Of a stretch of 49,612 bases of DNA, positions 971 to 49,612 are shown one piece after another. Within the stretch, counting starts at the first letter, position 1; each line of letters opens with the position of its first letter. The DNA is from a virus (taxonomy: Duplodnaviria > Caudoviricetes), in IMG/VR virus record IMGVR_UViG_3300036771_000020, positions 1-49,612 of that record; one strand, 5' to 3'. Made by a program: the position numbers and the translations under genes. The notes below the pieces were generated by a model that made no database searches, was not told the DNA's origin, and saw only the letters and a list, made by a program, of their open reading frames with translations.

Positions 971-1059
971 TATTTCAAAAGTGATGGTTGATCAAGTGCT
1001 GATCAGATTCTTCCGTAGTGCTAAACTTCGCCATTACTCAAAACTATGTATACAGACAA

Positions 1060-1425
1060 ATGCTTAAGCTATTTTCGAAATATTTTACTGTCGGCGTTTT
1101 CAATACCGCGATCCACTGGGCCGTATTTGCCGCTTGTCTCTACTTATTTAATACAAACCAAGCACTAGCAAACTTCGCGGCGTTCTGTGTTGCTGTGACA
1201 TTTTCATTTTTTGCAAATGCAAGGTACACATTCAAGGCTCAGGCAACATCTGGGCGTTACATGCTTTACATTGTCTTTATGGGGCTGCTGAGCGCGGCCA
1301 CAGGCTGGCTTGCTGATGTATGCGGACTACCCGCACTGTTTACGCTGATTGCTTTCTCAGCAATTAGTCTCGTTTGTGGTTTTTTCTATTCTAAATTCAT
1401 CGTTTTCCGGAGTGAAAAGGCGTGA
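1060..1425 (+). CDS. gtrA: Bactoprenol-linked glucose translocase
   Basis: [23 protein letters not shown]..., about 120 aa with four hydrophobic segments, first gene of the gtr cluster. Confidence 0.93.
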
Positions 1426-2342
1426 ATATTTCTCTTGTTGTTCCTGTCTTCAATGAAGAAGACACAATCCCCATTTTCTATAAGACGGTTCGCGAGTTCG
1501 AAGCGTTGAAAGAGCACGATGTTGAAATCGTTTTTATCAACGATGGAAGCAAAGACTCAACGGAGGCGATTATCAATGCGCTGGCTTTGTCTGACAGTAG
1601 GGTAAAAGCCCTGTCGTTCACTCGCAACTTTGGCAAAGAACCTGCATTATTTGCTGGCCTGGATAATGCTACAGGCGACGCAGTAATCCCGATTGATGTC
1701 GATTTACAGGATCCGATTGAAGTCATTCCGCATCTGATTGAGAAATGGAAATCTGGGGCGGATATGGTGCTGGCTAAGCGCACTGACCGCTCTACTGATG
1801 GCCATCTGAAGCGCAAGTCCGCAGAGATGTTCTATAAGCTTCACAACAAGATAAGCAATCCGAAGATTGAAGAGAATGTTGGTGACTTCCGTTTGATGTC
1901 AAGGGAAGTTGTTGAGCACATAAAGCTACTTCCAGAGCGCAATCTCTTTATGAAGGGGATACTAAGTTGGGTTGGTGGTCGCACTGACGTTGTTGAATAT
2001 GCCAGGGCTGAACGTGTTGCTGGTGACTCAAAATTCAACGGCTGGAAGCTATGGAACCTTGCTTTGGAGGGAATAACCAGCTTTTCAACTTTCCCACTGC
2101 GCATCTGGACATACATCGGATTGGGCGTTTCTGCTTTCGCTTTCCTGTACGCTGCGTGGATGATCGTCGATAAGTTGATATGGGGTAACCCTGTTCCCGG
2201 CTATCCATCATTGATGACAGCAATCCTGTTCCTTGGCGGAGTTCAGCTTATTGGGATAGGCGTACTGGGTGAATACATTGGCAGAATTTACATGGAGGTT
2301 AAGAAAAGACCTCGATATATTTTGAAGGGAGATAAGAAGTGA
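1422..2342 (+). CDS. gtrB: Bactoprenol glucosyltransferase (GT2)
   Basis: [25 protein letters not shown] and DVDLQDP motifs; two C-terminal TM helices. Confidence 0.96.
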
Positions 2343-4006
2343 TATTCAAGAATAGAAGCACTTTCACTATATTTGCTTTGGTATTTTTTGCTATTTTCTT
2401 AGTTGCATTAAAAACGCCAATGCATTCTGATGACTATAGTTACTACTCTCGCGGACTGGCACTTGATACTCACATCGCAAACTATATGCACTGGAGTGGT
2501 CGTGTTGTCGCAGACTATGTATCTACAGGGATGCTATTTTTTGATGACTTCAATATTCGCGCCCTTGTTAATTCACTTGGTGTTGCATTCCTAATAGCTA
2601 TCATTGCATCGATGCCATCAGCTATTACCAAACAAAAAACAAGGCCAGAGGTACTTGCCCTTGTATTTTTTATCTACTGGGTGGCGAATCCAAACATAGG
2701 TCAAAATGCATTCTGGGTTGTTGGTACGGCTAACTATGCATTCACAACCTTATTTGCATTTTGTTATATCTATCTTTTCACTAAATGGATAGATAACTAT
2801 AATGCCAAGAAGATTGGCGCACTGTTACTTCTGGGAGTTATAGCGGGATGCTCTAACGAAAACACATCAGTGACAATGGCAGGCCTGGCATTTCTTGCAA
2901 GCGCATATCTCATGTGGCAAAAACGTACCAGTATCGCTTATGCTACGATTCCAACCGCAGGAGTCATTATTGGCGCTCTTATTATTATCCTTGCGCCAGG
3001 TAACTATGTACGCGCAAAGCATCCGTTTTTTGTTGAGTTTGGAAAATTAAGTATTTTTGAAAAGGTACAAATTCATTTAACACAAAGAATTGAGTTTGCA
3101 TTCACATCGGCATGGGTAGTGTTTCTCATAGCCGCTGTGATGTTGGCTTTCATCGTTATAAAGAAACCATATAAGAGCGATTCGCAAGTTAAAGTTCTTC
3201 TGGCACTAAGTGCTTTCTTCTTCATGGGGTTCTTTGTAGATAACTTTGTTTTGTTTGCAGCGCCATATACACCACCACGCTCATATAGCAGTGGCTTTTG
3301 TTTCCTTATGCTTTCCTTGTCATTCCTATTGTCCGCTACGGTTTCATCAAAAGATGAAACAGATAGAAAGATAGCTTTGCTTGCAGCGCTAACAGGTATA
3401 GGTTTTATTGTTTCTTACTACCTTGTCTATAGTTCATACTCTAGAACTTTTACGCAAAACACCCTTCGCATTTCATCAGTTATAACGGAAAGAATGAAAG
3501 GGGAAAAAATCATATCTGTGCCTACATTCCATTTTGCGAGATTACTCAAAGGTGATGATCAGTTTGACCGCTACCACAATGAAGACAGCATGGGGTCATA
3601 CTTTGGCGTAACTAAAATACCTTCTAAAATTGCCACTTTCGATTACTCTGGCTTAGCCAGTAAACCGCTATGGACTGGTGATGTAGAGGTAACTGAAGGC
3701 ATTAATGTTACGGCAATTTATGCATCACCTCAGCAACCTATGATATATGGTACGCTAGTCTTCGAATTCAGTAAGAATGCAGATGAAATTGTCAACTGGA
3801 CTTCAGACAGTAAAATGTTTACTCATGTTTATCTGAAATCAGGAGGCTCGGTAACGCGCGACTTCAGCCGACTGACAATTCCTCTTTTTGGAAAATATTA
3901 CGGCGGTGTATTAATGCGAGGCATTGATATGAATGACATTAAAAGCATCTCTTTTGGCTATGAGGTTAATGGTAGAGCTAAAACTGTCTTTAACGTCAAG
4001 ATGTAA
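2339..4006 (+). CDS. gtrC: Serotype-specific glucosyltransferase (GtrC-type multi-pass membrane protein)
   Basis: Third gene of gtrAB; PMHSDDY and WSGR motifs, about 11 hydrophobic segments, soluble C-terminus, AT-rich. Confidence 0.8.
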
Positions 4007-15074: not shown

Positions 15075-15422
15075 CTAAACCCCCGTGATAATGGCAATGT
15101 CTTCAGCAATGCGCTCGAACGTATCGGCATAGCGGATAACCTGCCGTACCTCATCAGCGCCAGCATTAAGCGGGTCAGCGTCGGTAGATGTGCCAATCAG
15201 GATATAGTCGCCAGCTTGTGCGTCGGTGTACTCTGTCCAGATGGTGCTCTTCACGACTATTTCAGCGCCAAGGCTGCCAATGCGCTTCGACAGGCCTCCT
15301 TCGTAATCGCAGAGAATGACCATCGGCTCCGAGTAGCCGAGATTATCTCCGCTTTCGCTGATACCGAGGCTTTTCCATACCGTGGCCGACGCTGTGTATG
15401 ACCAGCGAGCTGCTTCTGACAT
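15075..15422 (-). CDS. Head closure protein (putative)
   Basis: 115 aa in the head-tail joining block. Confidence 0.6.
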   Translation of the reverse strand: MSEAARWSYTASATVWKSLGISESGDNLGYSEPMVILCDYEGGLSKRIGSLGAEIVVKSTIWTEYTDAQAGDYILIGTSTDADPLNAGADEVRQVIRYADTFERIAEDIAIITGV

Positions 15423-16072
15423 TAGATGACCCTCCGATACGTACGCCCCTGCTTAATATGCGCAATTGCTCCTTTTGAAACGTTGTAACGCTCAGCTAAA
15501 GGCCGCAATTCTTCCCCATTAGCAAGCAATGCTCTTATTTCTCTAACCTGGTCGTCTGTTAATTTTGCGTGAGGCGGTGTTACTCCGTGCATAGGGTTAC
15601 CTTTTCCGGAATGGCGAGCCGACATTTTCGCCCTAACTTCCAGCCTCTTGCTTGCACCTTGGCACGGTAACCTCTTACCGAACCAATAGTTTCCGCTTCC
15701 CTTAACTCTTTCACTGATTTGTTTTTTGCGTTCATCTGAAAATTTCAGACCTGCACAACTTCCGGCGTTTGGCGCAATATTGAAAGATGGCTTTAGCAAA
15801 TCAAAGTAAGATTGCTCAGCAGGAACAAGTCCCGCCCTGTCTTCCACGATAGCCAGAACAGAAAACTCAAAGCATGTGTGGTCATATTCATTCCACGCAG
15901 TTTGCAAATTTCTATTGCCGTGAGTGCCTTTTCGCAGTTGATATTTATGAACCGCCCAACGGTTAGCTATATTTGTCGCTGAGCCAATATATAAATCACC
16001 TGTGGCAGCGTTACGAATTTGATAGACTCCGGCAACATTGCTATATGATGAATTATCATTATTTGCTTGCAT
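15422..16072 (-). CDS. Free-standing GIY-YIG homing endonuclease with NUMOD3-like repeats and a C-terminal HTH
   Basis: GVYQI..LYIGSA...RW..H motif; KFSDERKKQIS and RAKMSARHSGKGNPMHG repeats; C-terminal AKLTDDQVREIR...LAERYNVS. Confidence 0.88.
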   Translation of the reverse strand: MQANNDNSSYSNVAGVYQIRNAATGDLYIGSATNIANRWAVHKYQLRKGTHGNRNLQTAWNEYDHTCFEFSVLAIVEDRAGLVPAEQSYFDLLKPSFNIAPNAGSCAGLKFSDERKKQISERVKGSGNYWFGKRLPCQGASKRLEVRAKMSARHSGKGNPMHGVTPPHAKLTDDQVREIRALLANGEELRPLAERYNVSKGAIAHIKQGRTYRRVI

Positions 16073-16239
16073 CACTCTCGCCACCTCTCAACCTTTGCCC
16101 CACTCTCACGAATGCGCTTGCAATTAATCACCCACTCACCGTTGCTGTTGACGTAGCCGGTTGTCTCGCGGCCTGTGTCGGTGCGAACCCAGACTCGGGA
16201 GAAAGGTTTAGGCAAGCTTTCAGTTATGAGCTTCCACAT
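16072..16239 (-). CDS. Small hypothetical protein, 55 aa (below the ORF-track cutoff)
   Basis: MWKLITESLPKPFSRVWVRTDTGRETTGYVNSNGEW...; TGATG overlaps at both ends. Confidence 0.7.
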   Translation of the reverse strand: MWKLITESLPKPFSRVWVRTDTGRETTGYVNSNGEWVINCKRIRESGAKVERWRE

Positions 16240-27496: not shown

Positions 27497-27805
27497 TTAC
27501 TCACCTGCCTTTTCCAGGGCATCAACTGCAACTTTTACGGCTGCAGGCCGCTCTGATTGAGGCTTATCTTTCACCTCTCCCAGATACTGGCGCAGCATCT
27601 CTGTTCTCCGCTGGTCTTCTCTCCTGCCACGCCTTGCGTCAATCCGACCGTTTATATATGACGCCAGCGAGATAACGACCCCGATCAGGCCGAATATCAT
27701 GAAGACGACATCTTGTGTCGCAAGGCCAAGACCGGCTGCAATAGTTGCCAGCCACGCAAAGAACTGCGTGACAATATTTCCGGGCTGGTCATTCATACGA
27801 TGCAT
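27497..27805 (-). CDS. Holin, probably a pinholin, with a possible dual start (M-H-R-M)
   Basis: Two hydrophobic segments and a charged C-terminus; GGAGG RBS; directly upstream of the endolysin. Confidence 0.75.
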   Translation of the reverse strand: MHRMNDQPGNIVTQFFAWLATIAAGLGLATQDVVFMIFGLIGVVISLASYINGRIDARRGRREDQRRTEMLRQYLGEVKDKPQSERPAAVKVAVDALEKAGE

Positions 27806-27918
27806 TCCACACCTCCGTATTTCGGGGTGCTGTTCTGTGTAGTTGGGAAAGCGCCACTCATGCCACGGCACGTTATCTATGAGTGAAAGTGATTGCTGGA
27901 TGGTTGGCGCTAAATGTG

Positions 27919-27965: not shown

Positions 27966-27994
27966 TTGCAATATAATCATTTTTTGATTATATT
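27966..27994 (+). promoter_or_regulatory. Sigma70 promoter with an overlapping palindromic operator
   Basis: TTGCAA-17bp-TATATT; perfect inverted repeat ATATAATCA-N5-TGATTATAT at 27971..27993. Confidence 0.78.
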
Positions 27995-28023
27995 TATTTC
28001 ATTGAAACCGACAAGGAACGACT

Positions 28024-28323
28024 ATGAAACACTTCAAAAAAATCGAGTACAAAGGAAATACTCTTACTTTACAAACTGACAAGTCAGTCGATTGCATTGC
28101 TTACGAAATCGCTCTTAGCGAGCAAGTCATTGACTGGAGGGGTATTCCTGTATGCTTTATTGGTCTTTCATCAGATGACGCCAGTAAGTTTTATTGCCGA
28201 TCATTCAGCGATGAACAAATCGAATGTCTCATTCGCAAAGAGTATGATGATTGTCTTAATGGGCCAGACATAAAAGATTATGTCGCCACAGATGATACCC
28301 GCGCCTATTACGAAGATTTCTAA
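28024..28323 (+). CDS. Small acidic protein; candidate anti-CRISPR / anti-defence protein
   Basis: 99 aa, D/E-rich, AAGGA RBS, first gene before an Aca-like HTH gene; function inferred from context only. Confidence 0.55.
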   Translation: MKHFKKIEYKGNTLTLQTDKSVDCIAYEIALSEQVIDWRGIPVCFIGLSSDDASKFYCRSFSDEQIECLIRKEYDDCLNGPDIKDYVATDDTRAYYEDF

Positions 28324-28338
28324 TTACAGGCTTAAACC

Positions 28339-28521
28339 ATGAAGCTAATTGATTACATAAATCAAAATTTCAAATCAAAGGCAGAATTTTCCAGACTTAT
28401 GGGTGTTACGCCACAGCAGGTCACTAAGTGGATCAATGAAGATTGGATATTTGTAGATAATAAACTGTATAGCTTTCGCCGCTCAGTACCGCATTGCGAT
28501 AAAGGATTAAATGATGGATAA
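28339..28521 (+). CDS. Small HTH regulator resembling Aca5
   Basis: 60 aa, L.DYI..NF..KAEFSRLMGVTPQQVTKWI..DW....LYS.RR.VP; matches the Aca5 pattern as I recall it. Confidence 0.7.
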   Translation: MKLIDYINQNFKSKAEFSRLMGVTPQQVTKWINEDWIFVDNKLYSFRRSVPHCDKGLNDG

Positions 28522-28843
28522 CAGCATTGACATATCGGCATTCTCGACTAAGCAACTTTTAGAGTTCATGCGGAGAATAGTAAGCGAACTGGAGGTGCGA
28601 CAATCAAATCCCCAGTTCATACAAACACCAGAGCCTGTTATACCGACACTCTCCCCAGGCAGGATGGAATTAATTTTTATCAATAACTGTCTCTCTGTAG
28701 GCACAGTTAAATCTGAGATGAAAGACCGGTGGAGAGAACTCTACAATCAATATCCAGAGTGGTTCCAATCCAAGGGGTACCCTCATACATTGAGAGGTGC
28801 AGATTTCGACACATGGAAAAAATATTTCGCGCCGAGAGATTAA
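28511..28843 (+). CDS. Hypothetical protein
   Basis: 110 aa, AAGGA RBS, overlaps the end of the HTH gene. Confidence 0.7.
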   Translation: MMDNSIDISAFSTKQLLEFMRRIVSELEVRQSNPQFIQTPEPVIPTLSPGRMELIFINNCLSVGTVKSEMKDRWRELYNQYPEWFQSKGYPHTLRGADFDTWKKYFAPRD

Positions 28844-28847
28844 TACT

Positions 28848-29168
28848 ATGCAGGCAATAAAAATTGTAATTTCAGGAAGAAGCTTCCTTCTACCCGACGG
28901 ATTTGAGTTTCCCATGCCAGAATATATAGAACAACATATCGATATGATTAAGGCTTACATAGCGGCAGGAGATGAAATGCTCATGCTGGTTCCAAACTTT
29001 GATACCCCTGAAATGCAAAATGCAATGAATAGAATCAGGATTCTAAAGTCTGAGCTTACTGAATTTAAAGCCCGGACCGGAATTATCGGAACCCCATTTG
29101 ACTCCCGAGACACTGATCTTTACATCGCTGCAAATCATGTTGAGGTTATTTCTACAATTAACTTTTAG
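28848..29168 (+). CDS. Hypothetical protein
   Basis: 106 aa from MQAIKIVISG, 4 bp after the previous stop. Confidence 0.68.
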   Translation: MQAIKIVISGRSFLLPDGFEFPMPEYIEQHIDMIKAYIAAGDEMLMLVPNFDTPEMQNAMNRIRILKSELTEFKARTGIIGTPFDSRDTDLYIAANHVEVISTINF

Positions 29169-29213: not shown

Positions 29214-29408
29214 CTTATACAGACCTCTCAGCCTGCTTTGGTTGGAGTCCCAGACTAATTATCGAGTCGAAGTTACCAACTAGGCGGTATCAGTGATTCA
29301 GGTGCCGCCTCTTTAATCCTGAATCACCGCGCTCTTTCGCTATTGCTCCCGAGCATACCGCTAATATGCCAGGTAGCTTGCCCTTTGTCTTTAGCTATTC
29401 GTGCTATT

Positions 29409-30032
29409 TTATGCCACCAGTAGAATTTCTTTCTCCATTTCTCGCTTACATGAGTAAAACAATTCCGCTTCAAGGATATTTTCAGACCATTCCATTCTAT
29501 TCCTCGCCTCTTTAGCAGTTAATCCTTTGCTCACTAGATAGCGAATCAGGTTTTGCGCGCTATTGCGGTTGCAGTATCGTAATCTGGCGACAGAACGGAT
29601 GGGGTTGCCCCTTCCAAATGTCGTTACCATTACCCGCTCCATGAAGGCGGCATCATCTGATTCTTTGGCGAGAGCGATGATGTTGCCTGCTGCGGATTTT
29701 GGAATGAAGATATCTCGAGCCTTTCGCATTAGCTCGTCGCCGCGATACCCCTGACAGTGCAATGATGTGACCGTTTTTTCTATCTGCCGGCTCTTATCTT
29801 CGCTCCATTCTGTGCGCATCATTAGTCGCCCGATAACATTAACTGCCCCCTGAGGTGCGTCTTCGCCGCCGAGGTAATCACCCCATACGGTAAGCATATA
29901 TCTGACCCACTTCCTCTTTGGCTCAATGATGGTCTTCCATCCGGTGCCAAAGAGCCGTCGCATATCGGCCTCGCTTCTAACGCCTGAAATGCGCATCAGA
30001 TTTTCGAGGTCCGATCTGTCTTGTTTCTTCAT
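29409..30032 (-). CDS. Late antiterminator Q (putative)
   Basis: 207 aa at the end of the nin region, followed by a structured leader and terminator. Confidence 0.72.
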
Positions 30033-38752: not shown

Positions 38753-38887
38753 GTGCCTGCCGATCGGCACAGAGCAACACCATCAACCCAGCATAACCAA
38801 TTGATTAATATGGGATGCCGCTTCGTGCGGCATCATTAATCGGCCAAGCGGTCACCCCCCCCGATCCCCCTGGTAAGCGCTAGCACC

Positions 38888-47475: not shown

Positions 47476-47802
47476 ATGAGTGACGACTTCATGAAAATGG
47501 ATGAGTACGCAAGGAGGATAAGGGTCTCCAAGCACACTATCTATCGGAACCCTTACAAATACCACATGTTCAGAGTTGGTAATGGATGGCGGGCCAATAA
47601 TGAAAGCCTGGAAAAATTCACACAACCGAATAACAATGTCACCCGACTGGCTGTGGTCGGCGGTAAGGAGTCTAAAAAATGCCGATCATCAAAAGAGGTA
47701 AGAAGTACTGGGTGGACATCTCAGCGCCAGACGGAGAGAGAATTAGACGCTCTACTGGCACCGAGGACAAAGCAAAAGCACAGGAATATCACGACAAGCT
47801 GA
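47476..47802 (+). CDS. xis: Excisionase (putative)
   Basis: HTH/wing YARRIRVSKHTIYR...FRVGNGWR; overlaps the start of int. Confidence 0.72.
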   Translation: MSDDFMKMDEYARRIRVSKHTIYRNPYKYHMFRVGNGWRANNESLEKFTQPNNNVTRLAVVGGKESKKCRSSKEVRSTGWTSQRQTERELDALLAPRTKQKHRNITTS

Positions 47803-48725
47803 AGCATGAGCTATGGCAGGTGGCGAGGCTTGGAAAGATTCCAGACAGGACATTCGGGGATATTGTGGTACTTGCCTTGAGGGAGGCTGAGGGGCAATCG
47901 TGCTTCATCAACAAGCAGATTTATGCAAGATACTGGCTTTCTGTGTTTGGTGACCGGCTGATCACGAAAATAAGCGGGGAGGAAATTGCAGATAACCTCC
48001 CATCTTTTTCCCCGGCCAAGCGATGCAAGCTTTCTAATGCAACACGTAACCGATACCGTTCTTTTATTATGAGGGCTTTCTCGCTCGCTGTTAAGTCCGG
48101 CTGGATAACAACCATTCCTCACATTTCAACGCAGAGAGAGCCAAAGGTTCGTGTCCGGTGGATAGAGAAAGATCAGGCAAGGACTCTTATCGGCTCGCTT
48201 GAGTCTGAATGGATGAAGCGCATTGTATCTTTTGCTCTTCTTACAGGGGCAAGGAAAGGTGAAATTTTAAGCATGAAATGGGAAAGCGTGAATCTTTCTC
48301 GTCGCATTGCCGTGGTCACGGCGGATAACGCAAAGTCTGGGAAGGCTAGGCCGTTACCGCTTAATGATGAAGCAGTGAAGATGATCACATCATGTAACCG
48401 TAATTCTGATTACGTTTTCTCACTGAATGGAGAGCAGGCCAGCCAGATTCACAGGGGTGAGTTTTCCAGAGCATTAAATAGGGCTGGCATAACAGACTTC
48501 CGATTTCATGACCTCCGGCACACCTGGGCAAGCTGGCATGTTCAGAATGGAACCCCGTTGATGATGCTGAAGGAAATGGGCGGCTGGGAGAAGCTGGAAA
48601 TGGTGAACAAGTACGCTCACCTAAGCACCGAACACCTGAGCAAATTTAGCGGGATTGTCACATTTCTGGCACAGAGCGATGTTGATGAATCATCAAAGCC
48701 AGCGCTATCAGTCGTAAATTACTGA
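47679..48725 (+). CDS. int: Tyrosine integrase
   Basis: TGARKGE, KSG, FHDLRHT, GGW and KYAH catalytic motifs; ends 44 bp from att. Confidence 0.96.
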   Translation: MPIIKRGKKYWVDISAPDGERIRRSTGTEDKAKAQEYHDKLKHELWQVARLGKIPDRTFGDIVVLALREAEGQSCFINKQIYARYWLSVFGDRLITKISGEEIADNLPSFSPAKRCKLSNATRNRYRSFIMRAFSLAVKSGWITTIPHISTQREPKVRVRWIEKDQARTLIGSLESEWMKRIVSFALLTGARKGEILSMKWESVNLSRRIAVVTADNAKSGKARPLPLNDEAVKMITSCNRNSDYVFSLNGEQASQIHRGEFSRALNRAGITDFRFHDLRHTWASWHVQNGTPLMMLKEMGGWEKLEMVNKYAHLSTEHLSKFSGIVTFLAQSDVDESSKPALSVVNY

Positions 48726-48769
48726 TACATAGTAATTTTGTGAACCATTAAATTGCCGTGCGACTTTAA

Positions 48770-48792
48770 AGCATCAGAGAAACAGTCTGATG
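48770..48792. repeat. att core (queA side)
   Basis: Identical to 391..413. Confidence 0.96.
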
Positions 48793-48800
48793 GTTAAGAC

Positions 48801-48828
48801 AAAAACGCCGTCGGTTTACCCGGCGGCG
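48801..48828 (-). terminator. Hairpin and T-run after queA
   Basis: CGCCGCCG-GGTAAAC-CGACGGCG followed by TTTTT. Confidence 0.6.
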
Positions 48829-48840
48829 CAGAATGAGGCA

Positions 48841-49612
48841 TTAAGCGCCAGGGCGCTCATTAATCGCCTGCGGATTGTACGTGATGTACATCGCATCACC
48901 GTAACTAAAAAAGCGATATTCAGAATTCACCGCGGCCTGATAGGCATTCATGGTGTGTTTATAGCCCGCAAAGGCGGAAACCAGCATGATTAGCGTCGAC
49001 TCAGGGAGGTGGAAGTTGGTCACCAGCGCGTCGATAACTTTGTATTGATAGCCCGGATAAATGAAAATTTGCGTGTCGCCAAAGAACGGCTCAATCAGGT
49101 CGTTTTTCGCCGCCTGAGCCGCGCTTTCCAGCGAACGAACGGAAGTGGTGCCTACAGCAATCACGCGGTTGCCGCGCGCTTTACAGGCCAGCACCGCGTC
49201 TACCACATCCTGCGGCACTTCGGCATATTCGGAGTGCATGATGTGATCTTCAATGCTGTCTACGCGCACCGGCTGGAAGGTCCCCGCGCCGACGTGCAGC
49301 GTGACAAACGCCTGCTCAACGCCTTTATTACGCAGGGCTTCGAGCAGCGGCTCGTCAAAATGCAGGCCCGCCGTTGGTGCGGCAACAGCGCCAGGCTTCT
49401 GGCTGTAAACGGTTTGATAAAGCTCGCGATCCGCGTCTTCGTCAGGGCGGTCGATATAAGGCGGCAGCGGCATATGGCCGATGCTATTCAGAATATCCAG
49501 CACGCTGCGCTCGTCTTCGAACTGCACTTCAAACAGCGCATCGTGGCGCGCAACCATTGTCGCATGTACGCTTTCATCATCGCCCAGCAGCAGTTCGGCA
49601 CCCGGCTTAGGG
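48841..49612 (-). CDS. queA: S-adenosylmethionine:tRNA ribosyltransferase-isomerase, 3' part
   Basis: [35 protein letters not shown] and [10 protein letters not shown] motifs. Confidence 0.98.

What the first reader, a model, noticed from the sequence alone, without database searches (positions are those of the whole stretch)
27966..28521. Candidate new anti-CRISPR with acr-aca5-like architecture and a perfect operator
Seen: a plus-strand promoter (TTGCAA-17-TATATT) overlapped by the perfect palindrome ATATAATCA-N5-TGATTATAT. It drives a 99-aa acidic ORF I do not recognise, followed by a 60-aa HTH protein. Known: acr genes lie upstream of small HTH aca genes that repress through promoter inverted repeats, and Aca5 marks type I-F/I-E acr loci in Enterobacterales mobile elements. 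The HTH matches Aca5 in size and motif from memory (YI..NF..KA.F.R.MGV..Q.V.KWI...W....Y...RR..P). Inference: 28024..28323 is an Acr or other anti-defence protein.
Basis: partly seen in the sequence, partly recalled or inferred. Interest (0 to 1): 0.82.

Follow-up and report, generated by a model that had tools for sequence, protein, structure and literature searches.

The report
Short AcrIF21 bridging two anti-CRISPR families
This prophage carries a known kind of anti-CRISPR gene cluster, but its first gene is a shortened relative of the inhibitor AcrIF21 that also resembles the structurally solved AcrIF19, so both likely disarm bacterial CRISPR immunity by plugging the same DNA-cutting enzyme, which is predicted and untested.

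Summary
The HTH is Aca5 (50% identity to a listed Aca5), and the palindrome matches a published Aca5 operator letter for letter. The locus is a four-gene, low-GC insert between Q and the holin of a lambdoid prophage.

The 99-aa ORF is not a new family. Residues 1-78 are 42% identical to the validated type I-F inhibitor AcrIF21 (162 aa), about 63 aa shorter.

The new point is that the 99-aa protein also aligns end to end with an AcrIF19 homolog (28%, pairwise E 1e-7, shuffle z 10). AcrIF19 is the top PDB hit of an AcrIF21-family profile, but only at E 0.18. AcrIF19 and AcrIF21, published as separate families, are therefore likely one, which predicts that AcrIF21 and this protein plug Cas2/3. 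Structure models were low-confidence and gave no support.

Type I-F CRISPR is in 8 of 14 genomes of the nearest sampled genus, and 6 of 260 spacers match this phage. The scan has reported other aca5 loci on other DNA, but none naming AcrIF19 or AcrIF21.

The parts
27966..27994 (+). sigma-70-type promoter (-35 TTGCAA, -10 TATATT, 17-nt spacer)
   Evidence: same layout in aca5 loci and in published aca5 promoters
27970..27994 (.). Aca5 operator: perfect inverted repeat, 10-bp arms, 5-nt spacer, covering the spacer and the -10 box
   Evidence: 24 of its 25 nt (27971-27994) stand unchanged in locus L055 and, read by eye, in published Klebsiella acrIE8-aca5 promoters
28024..28323 (+). 99-aa acidic protein (P0001): short AcrIF21-family anti-CRISPR candidate with remote homology to AcrIF19
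   Evidence: AcrIF21 42% over 78 aa, pairwise E 3e-22; AcrIF19
28339..28521 (+). aca5, 60-aa HTH repressor (P0002)
   Evidence: 50% over 58 aa to WP_137741920.1, listed as Aca5 in the PMC9410906 supplement; weak HTH_28 and HTH_3 hits below cut-off
28511..28843 (+). 110-aa AcrIF17 homolog (P0019), overlapping the aca5 stop codon
   Evidence: 33% over 117 columns, pairwise E 4e-20, to P0011 = PLY37347.1 = AcrIF17.1; shuffle z 31
28848..29168 (+). 106-aa acidic protein of unknown function (P0020, phrog_10842); untested anti-defence candidate
   Evidence: phrog_10842, E 5.9e-20, on the 123-aa frame from the upstream GTG; 35% to the gene directly behind aca5 in the P. parmentieri acrIF21-aca5 locus L091
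29185..29218 (.). hairpin flanked by A and T runs; likely terminator closing the operon and facing the late transcript from the Q side
   Evidence: - strand -22.8 kcal/mol, z -3.7; + strand -12.3, z -2.6; function inferred

Best explanation
This is a four-gene prophage operon of the known acr-aca5 kind, whose first gene is a shortened AcrIF21 relative that likely inhibits type I-F CRISPR-Cas and is predicted to do so like AcrIF19, by plugging the Cas2/3 nuclease.

Step 1 (inferred from Aca5 membership and the published reporter result for Aca families): the promoter fires when phage DNA enters a cell without Aca5. Aca5 then accumulates, binds the palindrome over the -10 box and damps the operon.

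Step 2 (shown by sequence): the operon holds an AcrIF21 homolog, aca5, an AcrIF17 homolog and one unknown gene.

Step 3 (inferred, about 0.8): the 99-aa protein, the N-terminal 78 aa of AcrIF21, and AcrIF19 share one small fold of four strands and two helices with an acidic, aromatic C-terminal tail. AcrIF21 carries an extra block of about 63 aa between core and tail.

[quoted passage not shown] This blocks recruitment to the R-loop and DNA cleavage. AcrIF17 adds a second block downstream of target binding.
For: Aca5 and operator.

AcrIF21 homology: in a phmmer search of 1.84 billion representatives, the only plausible non-self hit of 7 was P0003 (E 3.3e-13). Four of the other five are 815-2537-aa proteins matched in short repeated stretches; I read only P0004. 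The 90% cluster of P0003 holds PLY37348.1 = AcrIF21.

AcrIF19 link: the 99-aa protein aligns with WP_121304167.1, an AcrIF19 homolog, at 28% over 89 aa, pairwise E 1e-7, and 0 of 3000 shuffles reached the score (z 10.1). Three AcrIF21 N-termini score z 6.6-8.7 against the same protein, while AcrIF16, AcrIF17 and AcrIF20 as controls score z -1.2 to 1.5 against the 99-aa protein. The AcrIF19 homolog ranks 5th of 5783 background frames, directly after four AcrIF21 copies (E 1.2e-5; 0.011 without the 99-aa protein in the profile). hhalign gives 86%, E 4.7e-6 over 78 columns. AcrIF19 (9x2f_B) is first of 177,635 PDB sequences for two profiles that hold no AcrIF19 (E 0.2 and 0.18, collinear from residue 1).

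Mechanism: D19 and D23 are invariant in 5 of 5 family members and align with AcrIF19 E19 and E23, whose charge reversal impairs inhibition (PMC13381967). AcrIF19 and AcrIF21 have the same published spectrum: Pectobacterium and Serratia I-F inhibited; Pseudomonas I-F, I-E and I-C not.

Selective pressure: 8 of 14 genomes of the genus nearest the host flank hold I-F Cas2/3. 6 of 260 spacers match the phage with 3-6 mismatches, against a best of 9 in the reversed control, and 3 of the 6 have the CC PAM.
Against: No activity was measured. The protein lacks about 63 of AcrIF21's 162 residues, and where AcrIF21's activity lies is unknown. No second short copy was found, so selection on it cannot be shown.

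The AcrIF19 link is below significance in the full PDB search (E 0.18-0.2, next hits 0.24-0.29). Direct BLASTP of AcrIF21 against the AcrIF19 homolog finds nothing (E 7.1).

The loop is less acidic and one residue shorter than in AcrIF19. E27, a third critical residue, aligns with A26; Y18, Y21 and D22 are not kept; and K20 adds a positive charge. The tail match is by eye only and, in the AcrIF21 register, lacks the final Asp (D92 in AcrIF19).

The shared inhibition spectrum discriminates weakly, since AcrIF17.2 shows it too. Both AlphaFold models are low-confidence (pLDDT 46 and 56.5), and the better one had AcrIF19 homologs in its alignment. The host species is not identified (nearest sampled flank 86-88%).
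Confidence: 0.55

Rival explanations
1. The 99-aa gene is an inactive or weakened deletion remnant of acrIF21. The missing block is needed, and the operon's anti-CRISPR activity comes from the AcrIF17 homolog.
For: All AcrIF21 homologs seen are 162 aa: 3 of 3 in the paper's list and those of 4 distinct loci here. acrIF17 copies with internal deletions occur in two Pectobacterium acr loci (L102, L095). The short form was found once.
Against: The frame is intact, with a ribosome-binding site, in the first position behind the promoter. It ends in an acidic, aromatic tail like AcrIF19 and AcrIF21. Its length matches the active 93-aa AcrIF19. At 42% identity it has diverged far from AcrIF21 without a stop codon.
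Confidence: 0.2
2. The 99-aa protein is an active type I-F inhibitor but does not work like AcrIF19. It binds the Csy complex or another Cas2/3 surface, and the AcrIF19 likeness is remote ancestry or chance.
For: The loop residues of AcrIF19 are only partly kept. The PDB-wide E-value is 0.18-0.2. AcrIF21's mechanism is unpublished (PMC13381967 introduction).
Against: The alignment is collinear and full length, keeps two of the three critical acidic positions, and beats shuffle and background controls.
Confidence: 0.17
3. The 99-aa protein has shifted target, to type I-E CRISPR or to a non-CRISPR defence, in a non-Pectobacterium host.
For: aca5 also marks I-E and dual inhibitors (PMC7648647). 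Aca operons hold non-Acr genes (PMC13551039). The host flank is only 77% identical to Pectobacterium polonicum.
Against: Both related families and the neighbour AcrIF17 are I-F inhibitors. I-F systems are common in the nearest genus and carry spacers against this phage. I-E presence in that genus was not tested.
Confidence: 0.08

Closest known systems
acr-aca5 operons of Enterobacterales prophages (Pinilla-Redondo et al. 2020, PMC7648647; Shehreen et al. 2022, PMC9410906)
   Same: Aca5 repressor, operator inside the promoter, a cluster of small genes, and the same position between Q and holin as in Erwinia phage Midgardsormr38, Cronobacter phage ENT47670, phiEt88 and PSTNGR2lys. acrIF21 and acrIF17 also share an operon in Pectobacterium.
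   Different: acrIF17 lies behind aca5 rather than before it. Genes behind aca5 do occur in published loci. The host flank is not Pectobacterium.
AcrIF21 (PLY37348.1, 162 aa, Pectobacterium; validated I-F inhibitor, mechanism unpublished)
   Same: Residues 1-78 are 42% identical. Both are acidic (pI 4.5 and 4.4), come first in an aca5 operon, and end in a similar acidic, aromatic tail (by eye).
   Different: 99 aa instead of 162, so a block of about 63 aa is absent. It lies outside Pectobacterium, to which AcrIF19-22 were reported to be mostly confined. Untested.
AcrIF19 (RJL39232.1, 93 aa; PDB 9X2F; Sa et al. 2026, PMC13381967), Cas2/3 ssDNA-channel blocker
   Same: Similar size, charge and aca5 context; collinear alignment (28% to WP_121304167.1); acidic residues at 19 and 23; predicted order of four strands, two helices and a tail (low confidence).
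   Different: Remote identity; the loop is one residue shorter and less acidic; E27, Y18, Y21 and D22 are not kept; the tail is longer and differs.
AcrIF17 (PLY37347.1; validated I-F inhibitor acting downstream of DNA binding)
   Same: The third gene aligns over its whole length (33%, E 4e-20).
   Different: 110 aa against 116 aa; pI 6.6 against 8.95; untested copy.

Membership tests
Aca5 | Sequence homology to listed Aca5 proteins, about 60 aa | tested here: met
   50% over 58 aa, pairwise E 5e-15, to WP_137741920.1; shuffle z 21
Aca5 | Helix-turn-helix domain (HTH_28/HTH_3) | tested here: met
   HTH_28 E 0.0057 and HTH_3 E 0.0085, both below Pfam cut-offs; these are the families PMC9410906 gives for Aca5
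Aca5 | Inverted repeat of the Aca5 type inside the operon's core promoter | tested here: met
Aca5 | In one operon with known acr genes | tested here: met
   AcrIF21 homolog 15 nt upstream; AcrIF17 homolog overlapping the stop codon
Aca5 | Binds the repeat and represses the promoter | not testable with these tools
   needs EMSA or a reporter
AcrIF21 | Sequence homology to PLY37348.1 | tested here: met
   42% over residues 1-78, E 3e-22; library-wide E 3.3e-13 to its cluster mate
AcrIF21 | Full-length 162-aa architecture | tested here: not met
   99 aa; about 63 aa absent. Filed as a short variant, not a canonical member
AcrIF21 | Inhibits type I-F interference | not testable with these tools
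   needs a plaque or plasmid assay
AcrIF19 | Sequence homology to AcrIF19 | tested here: inconclusive
   Significant pairwise and in a 5783-frame background; top hit but E 0.18-0.2 in the PDB
AcrIF19 | Fold of four antiparallel strands, two helices and a C-terminal tail | tested here: inconclusive
   Order of elements matches in a pLDDT-56.5 model built with AcrIF19 homologs in the alignment; the model without them gave five strands at pLDDT 46
AcrIF19 | Acidic beta2-beta3 loop (E19, E23, E27) | tested here: inconclusive
   2 of 3 kept as Asp; E27 aligns with Ala, with Glu two positions on
AcrIF19 | Binds Cas2/3 and blocks its ssDNA channel | not testable with these tools
   needs pull-down and cleavage assays
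AcrIF17 | Full-length homology to PLY37347.1 | tested here: met
   shuffle z 31
AcrIF17 | Inhibits type I-F interference | not testable with these tools
   needs an assay

The most novel reading that the evidence does not exclude
AcrIF19 and AcrIF21 are one superfamily of Cas2/3 channel plugs. This 99-aa protein is the missing link and the minimal active form of AcrIF21, retuned to the Cas2/3 of a non-Pectobacterium host. The 106-aa gene closing the operon is a further, unnamed inhibitor, so the phage stacks three blocks on the nuclease step of type I-F immunity.
Probability: 0.3. Interest if true: 0.65.

Novelty: new variant of a known kind. Interest (0 to 1): 0.45.

Why it matters
The operon type is known, so the locus itself is a modest find. 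Its value is the bridge. AcrIF21's mechanism is unpublished and AcrIF19's was solved in 2026. If they share a core, the AcrIF19 structure gives residue-level predictions for AcrIF21 (D19, D23, tail), says its middle block is dispensable or modulatory, and merges two numbered Acr families. A natural short form with a diverged loop is a ready probe of how these inhibitors adapt to Cas2/3 variants. The locus also extends AcrIF21 beyond Pectobacterium and flags one untested gene behind aca5, outside the upstream-of-aca5 search rule of the discovery paper.

Tried and rejected
Library scans: Pfam, PHROGs and NCBIfam gave no family for the 99-aa protein. A single-sequence PDB search gave no relevant hit. 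The Atlas gave no usable hit for it or for the 106-aa protein.

Homolog searches: the word-indexed search returned only the query for the 99-aa protein, the HTH and the AcrIF19 homolog. It is insensitive here, since it missed known Aca5. No further short copy was found in phages, IMG/VR (3 loci, all 162-aa AcrIF21), plasmids (one 162-aa AcrIF21), metagenomes (0 of 596 candidates), 151 genomes of the family (1, the 162-aa form) or 14 genomes of the nearest genus (0, with no positive control).

Rejected hits: the five hits below P0003 (short repeated stretches in long proteins); mucolipin, ALAD and S21; Erwinia phage H9/H10 at E 0.9; L151 (21-aa match).

Structure: fold searches with both low-confidence models found nothing (best Z 4.2 and 3.6). 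AcrIF19 was not listed, and 9X2F may postdate the structure library (entries to 2026-04-08), so this says nothing either way. The complex prediction of the 99-aa protein with P. atrosepticum Cas2/3 residues 385-1098 returned 'no answer' and is counted neither for nor against.

Expression and regulation: no RNA holder was listed. No stable 5' UTR hairpin (z -1.3). There is no convincing second operator: a degenerate pattern gave 8 matches against 3.9 expected, and 5 of 100 shuffles reached 8.

Considered and rejected: a wholly new Acr family (homology to AcrIF21), and a sequence error truncating acrIF21 (the downstream DNA is aca5, not the rest of acrIF21).

Full report
OBSERVATION. The palindrome has 10-bp perfect arms around 5 nt. 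It is the only perfect repeat with arms of 9 or more and a loop of 3-7 in the window, and 11 of 5000 shuffles of the upstream 200 bp reach 10-bp arms. The promoter scan alone is not above chance (6 sites against 4.0 +/- 1.9).

CONTEXT. The window is a lambdoid prophage with an integrase-like ORF at 47679-48725 and a host queA-like fragment at 48841-49557 (both named from my own knowledge of the sequences). The locus lies on the + strand between the - strand Q gene (29409-30032, phrog_753) and holin (27497-27871, phrog_1350). It is a GC dip of 0.38-0.43 against about 0.45-0.55 around it. Four ORFs follow one another tightly: 28024-28323, a 15-nt gap, 28339-28521, an overlap, 28511-28843, a 4-nt gap, 28848-29168, then a hairpin. 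One transcript is inferred, not shown. In 4 of 5 distinct phages with the same HTH, it sits between lysis genes and Q or nin genes, behind a different small gene.

THE HTH IS ACA5. It is 50% identical to WP_137741920.1, which the supplement of PMC9410906 lists under Aca5. Published Klebsiella acrIE8-aca5 promoters contain the same 24 nt, 27971-27994 (by eye; locus L055). An operator-like repeat lay within 1.6 kb upstream in 48 of 113 aca5-like loci. These loci are redundant, and my pattern misses the variant seen in L001 and L003, so 48 is a lower bound and not an independent count. Arms vary in a paired way between loci, as expected for a dimer-binding site. That paper's abstract reports repression of such promoters by the cognate Aca for each family; I could not see its motif figure.

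THE 99-AA ORF IS A SHORT ACRIF21 RELATIVE. Family libraries gave nothing. phmmer over 1.84 billion representatives gave 7 hits: itself, P0003 (162 aa, E 3.3e-13), and five long proteins matched in short repeated stretches, which I rejected. The cluster of P0003 contains PLY37348.1, the tested AcrIF21 of PMC7648647. Identity is 42% over residues 1-78. All other copies found are 162 aa. By eye, the last nine residues line up without gaps with AcrIF21 residues 152-160 (D, T, Y and F identical, one D/E pair; sequences). This was not tested statistically, and MAFFT aligned the region differently. The simplest reading is core plus tail without a middle block of about 63 aa.

TWO MORE GENES. The ORF at 28511-28843 is homologous over its length to AcrIF17.1 (PLY37347.1; 33%, E 4e-20). 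AcrIF17 inhibits I-F downstream of DNA binding. The ORF at 28848-29168 matches phrog_10842 and is 35% identical to the gene directly behind aca5 in a P. parmentieri acrIF21-aca5 locus. That was the only other full-length copy I found, so 2 of 2 copies seen are in acrIF21-aca5 operons.

THE LINK TO ACRIF19. A profile of the 99-aa protein and AcrIF21 ranked AcrIF19 (9x2f_B) first among 177,635 PDB sequences, at E 0.2 and then 0.18 with the N-terminal profile, collinear from residue 1. These values are not significant alone. I then recovered a natural AcrIF19 homolog (L102:2017-2298 = WP_121304167.1; E 1.5e-26 to 9x2f_B). The 99-aa protein aligns with it at 28% over 89 aa (E 1e-7), and 0 of 3000 shuffles reached that score. 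Three AcrIF21 N-termini scored z 6.6-8.7 (0-1 of 3000), and three unrelated Acrs z -1.2 to 1.5. Among 5783 frames from all fetched loci it ranked directly after the four AcrIF21 copies (E 1.2e-5, next hit E 1). hhalign gave 86% and E 4.7e-6. BLASTP of full AcrIF21 against the AcrIF19 homolog finds nothing, which may be why they were numbered apart. A Brenneria AcrIF19 homolog listed in PMC7648647 begins much like AcrIF21 (by eye).

IS THE LINK IN PRINT? Searches for AcrIF21, AcrIF19, either term from 2021 on, AcrIF17, and aca5 returned few papers. The main text of the AcrIF19 structure paper never names AcrIF21 singly and calls the functions of AcrIF15-22 unclear. I did not open two reviews that mention both once (PMC10328345, PMC11471075; search listing only). 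Subscription journals are not in the library.

MECHANISM. AcrIF19 has four strands, two helices and a 10-residue tail. [quoted passage not shown] In the 99-aa protein D19 and D23 align with E19 and E23 and are invariant in 5 of 5 family members. E27 aligns with Ala, Y18, Y21 and D22 are lost, and the loop is one residue shorter. Published plating data give AcrIF19 and AcrIF21 (labelled AcrIFE21 in the source file) the same spectrum, as for AcrIF17.2. AlphaFold models were weak: pLDDT 46 without, and 56.5 with, AcrIF19 homologs in the alignment. The latter shows four strands, two main helices and a low-confidence tail. My estimates: Aca5 operon 0.97; AcrIF21 homology 0.98; common origin with AcrIF19 0.8; active I-F inhibitor 0.7; Cas2/3 plug 0.5-0.55.

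TARGET PRESSURE. The host flank is 77% identical to P. polonicum and 86-88% to the best of 401 sampled genomes, so the host is an Enterobacterales outside Pectobacterium; the species is unknown. Four of the five best genomes fall in one 14-genome genus. Of these 14, 8 hold I-F Cas2/3 above cut-off and 13 hold the I-F repeat. From 17 fetched stretches of 11 genomes I extracted 260 spacers. Six match the window with 3, 3, 6, 6, 6 and 6 mismatches, where the reversed control reaches 9 at best. Three have CC directly 5'; the two closest do not. Relatives of this phage have therefore met type I-F immunity in that genus. Self-targeting could not be tested, as no host genome is held.

COMPARISON AND NOVELTY. 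The system is a member of the acr-aca5 kind. The third gene is a new AcrIF17 member by sequence. The first gene fails the full-length test for AcrIF21 and is filed as a short variant. It is predicted to work like AcrIF19, with membership inconclusive. Verdict: new variant of a known kind, interest 0.45.

PAPERS SEEN. PMC7648647: parts 1-3 of 7 of the text, supplements 4 and 7 whole, supplement 10 part 1 of 4, and search passages. PMC9410906: passages, and supplement parts 1 and 158 of 330. PMC13381967: parts 1-3 of 8 and passages; no supplement. PMC13551039: abstract and Results parts 1-2 of 3. bioRxiv 10.1101/2020.05.22.110304: passages. Unseen supplements, notably the homolog alignment of PMC13381967, could bear on the claim that the link is not in print.

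Noticed in passing
window 28848-29168 (+) and L091:3728-4051: 106-aa acidic gene (phrog_10842) closes the operon; both copies seen lie in acrIF21-aca5 operons behind aca5. Untested anti-defence candidate.
   Followed up: partly
L102:2308-2485 and L095:4512-4628: acrIF17 copies with internal deletions in two Pectobacterium acr operons.
   Followed up: no
L004:1367-2432 (Erwinia phage phiEt88): An unannotated aca5 (1367-1525) is followed by gp66, whose N-terminal part is 37% identical to AcrIF16 over 103 aa.
   Followed up: no
aca5 loci L001, L003, L055, L075, L084, L090, L105: Operator arms come in at least five paired variants across loci, alongside differences in the Aca5 recognition helix; possible operator-repressor co-variation.
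   Followed up: no
window 7501, 15106, 21210, 30973, 40622, 43123: Six protospacer-like matches (3-6 mismatches) to type I-F spacers of the nearest genus; the two closest lack the CC PAM.
   Followed up: partly
window 1018-4006 (+): Three genes that look like a gtrABC O-antigen glucosylation cluster (identification recalled, not tested).
   Followed up: no
window 15422-16084 (-): 220-aa ORF that looks like a GIY-YIG homing endonuclease inserted among head genes (recalled, not tested).
   Followed up: no
window 47679-49557: Integrase-like gene next to a host queA-like fragment, which marks one prophage end; attachment sites were not mapped.
   Followed up: partly
window 38793-38811: Operator-like sequence with one mismatch left of the repressor region; within chance.
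   Followed up: partly
L080, L138, L084, L085: aca5 with two operators only 50-170 bp upstream, so with no or a very small acr gene in between.
   Followed up: no
window 29239-29288: A short stretch shared with high-depth contigs of other elements in run X1, just right of the terminator hairpin; possibly conserved late-promoter sequence.
   Followed up: no
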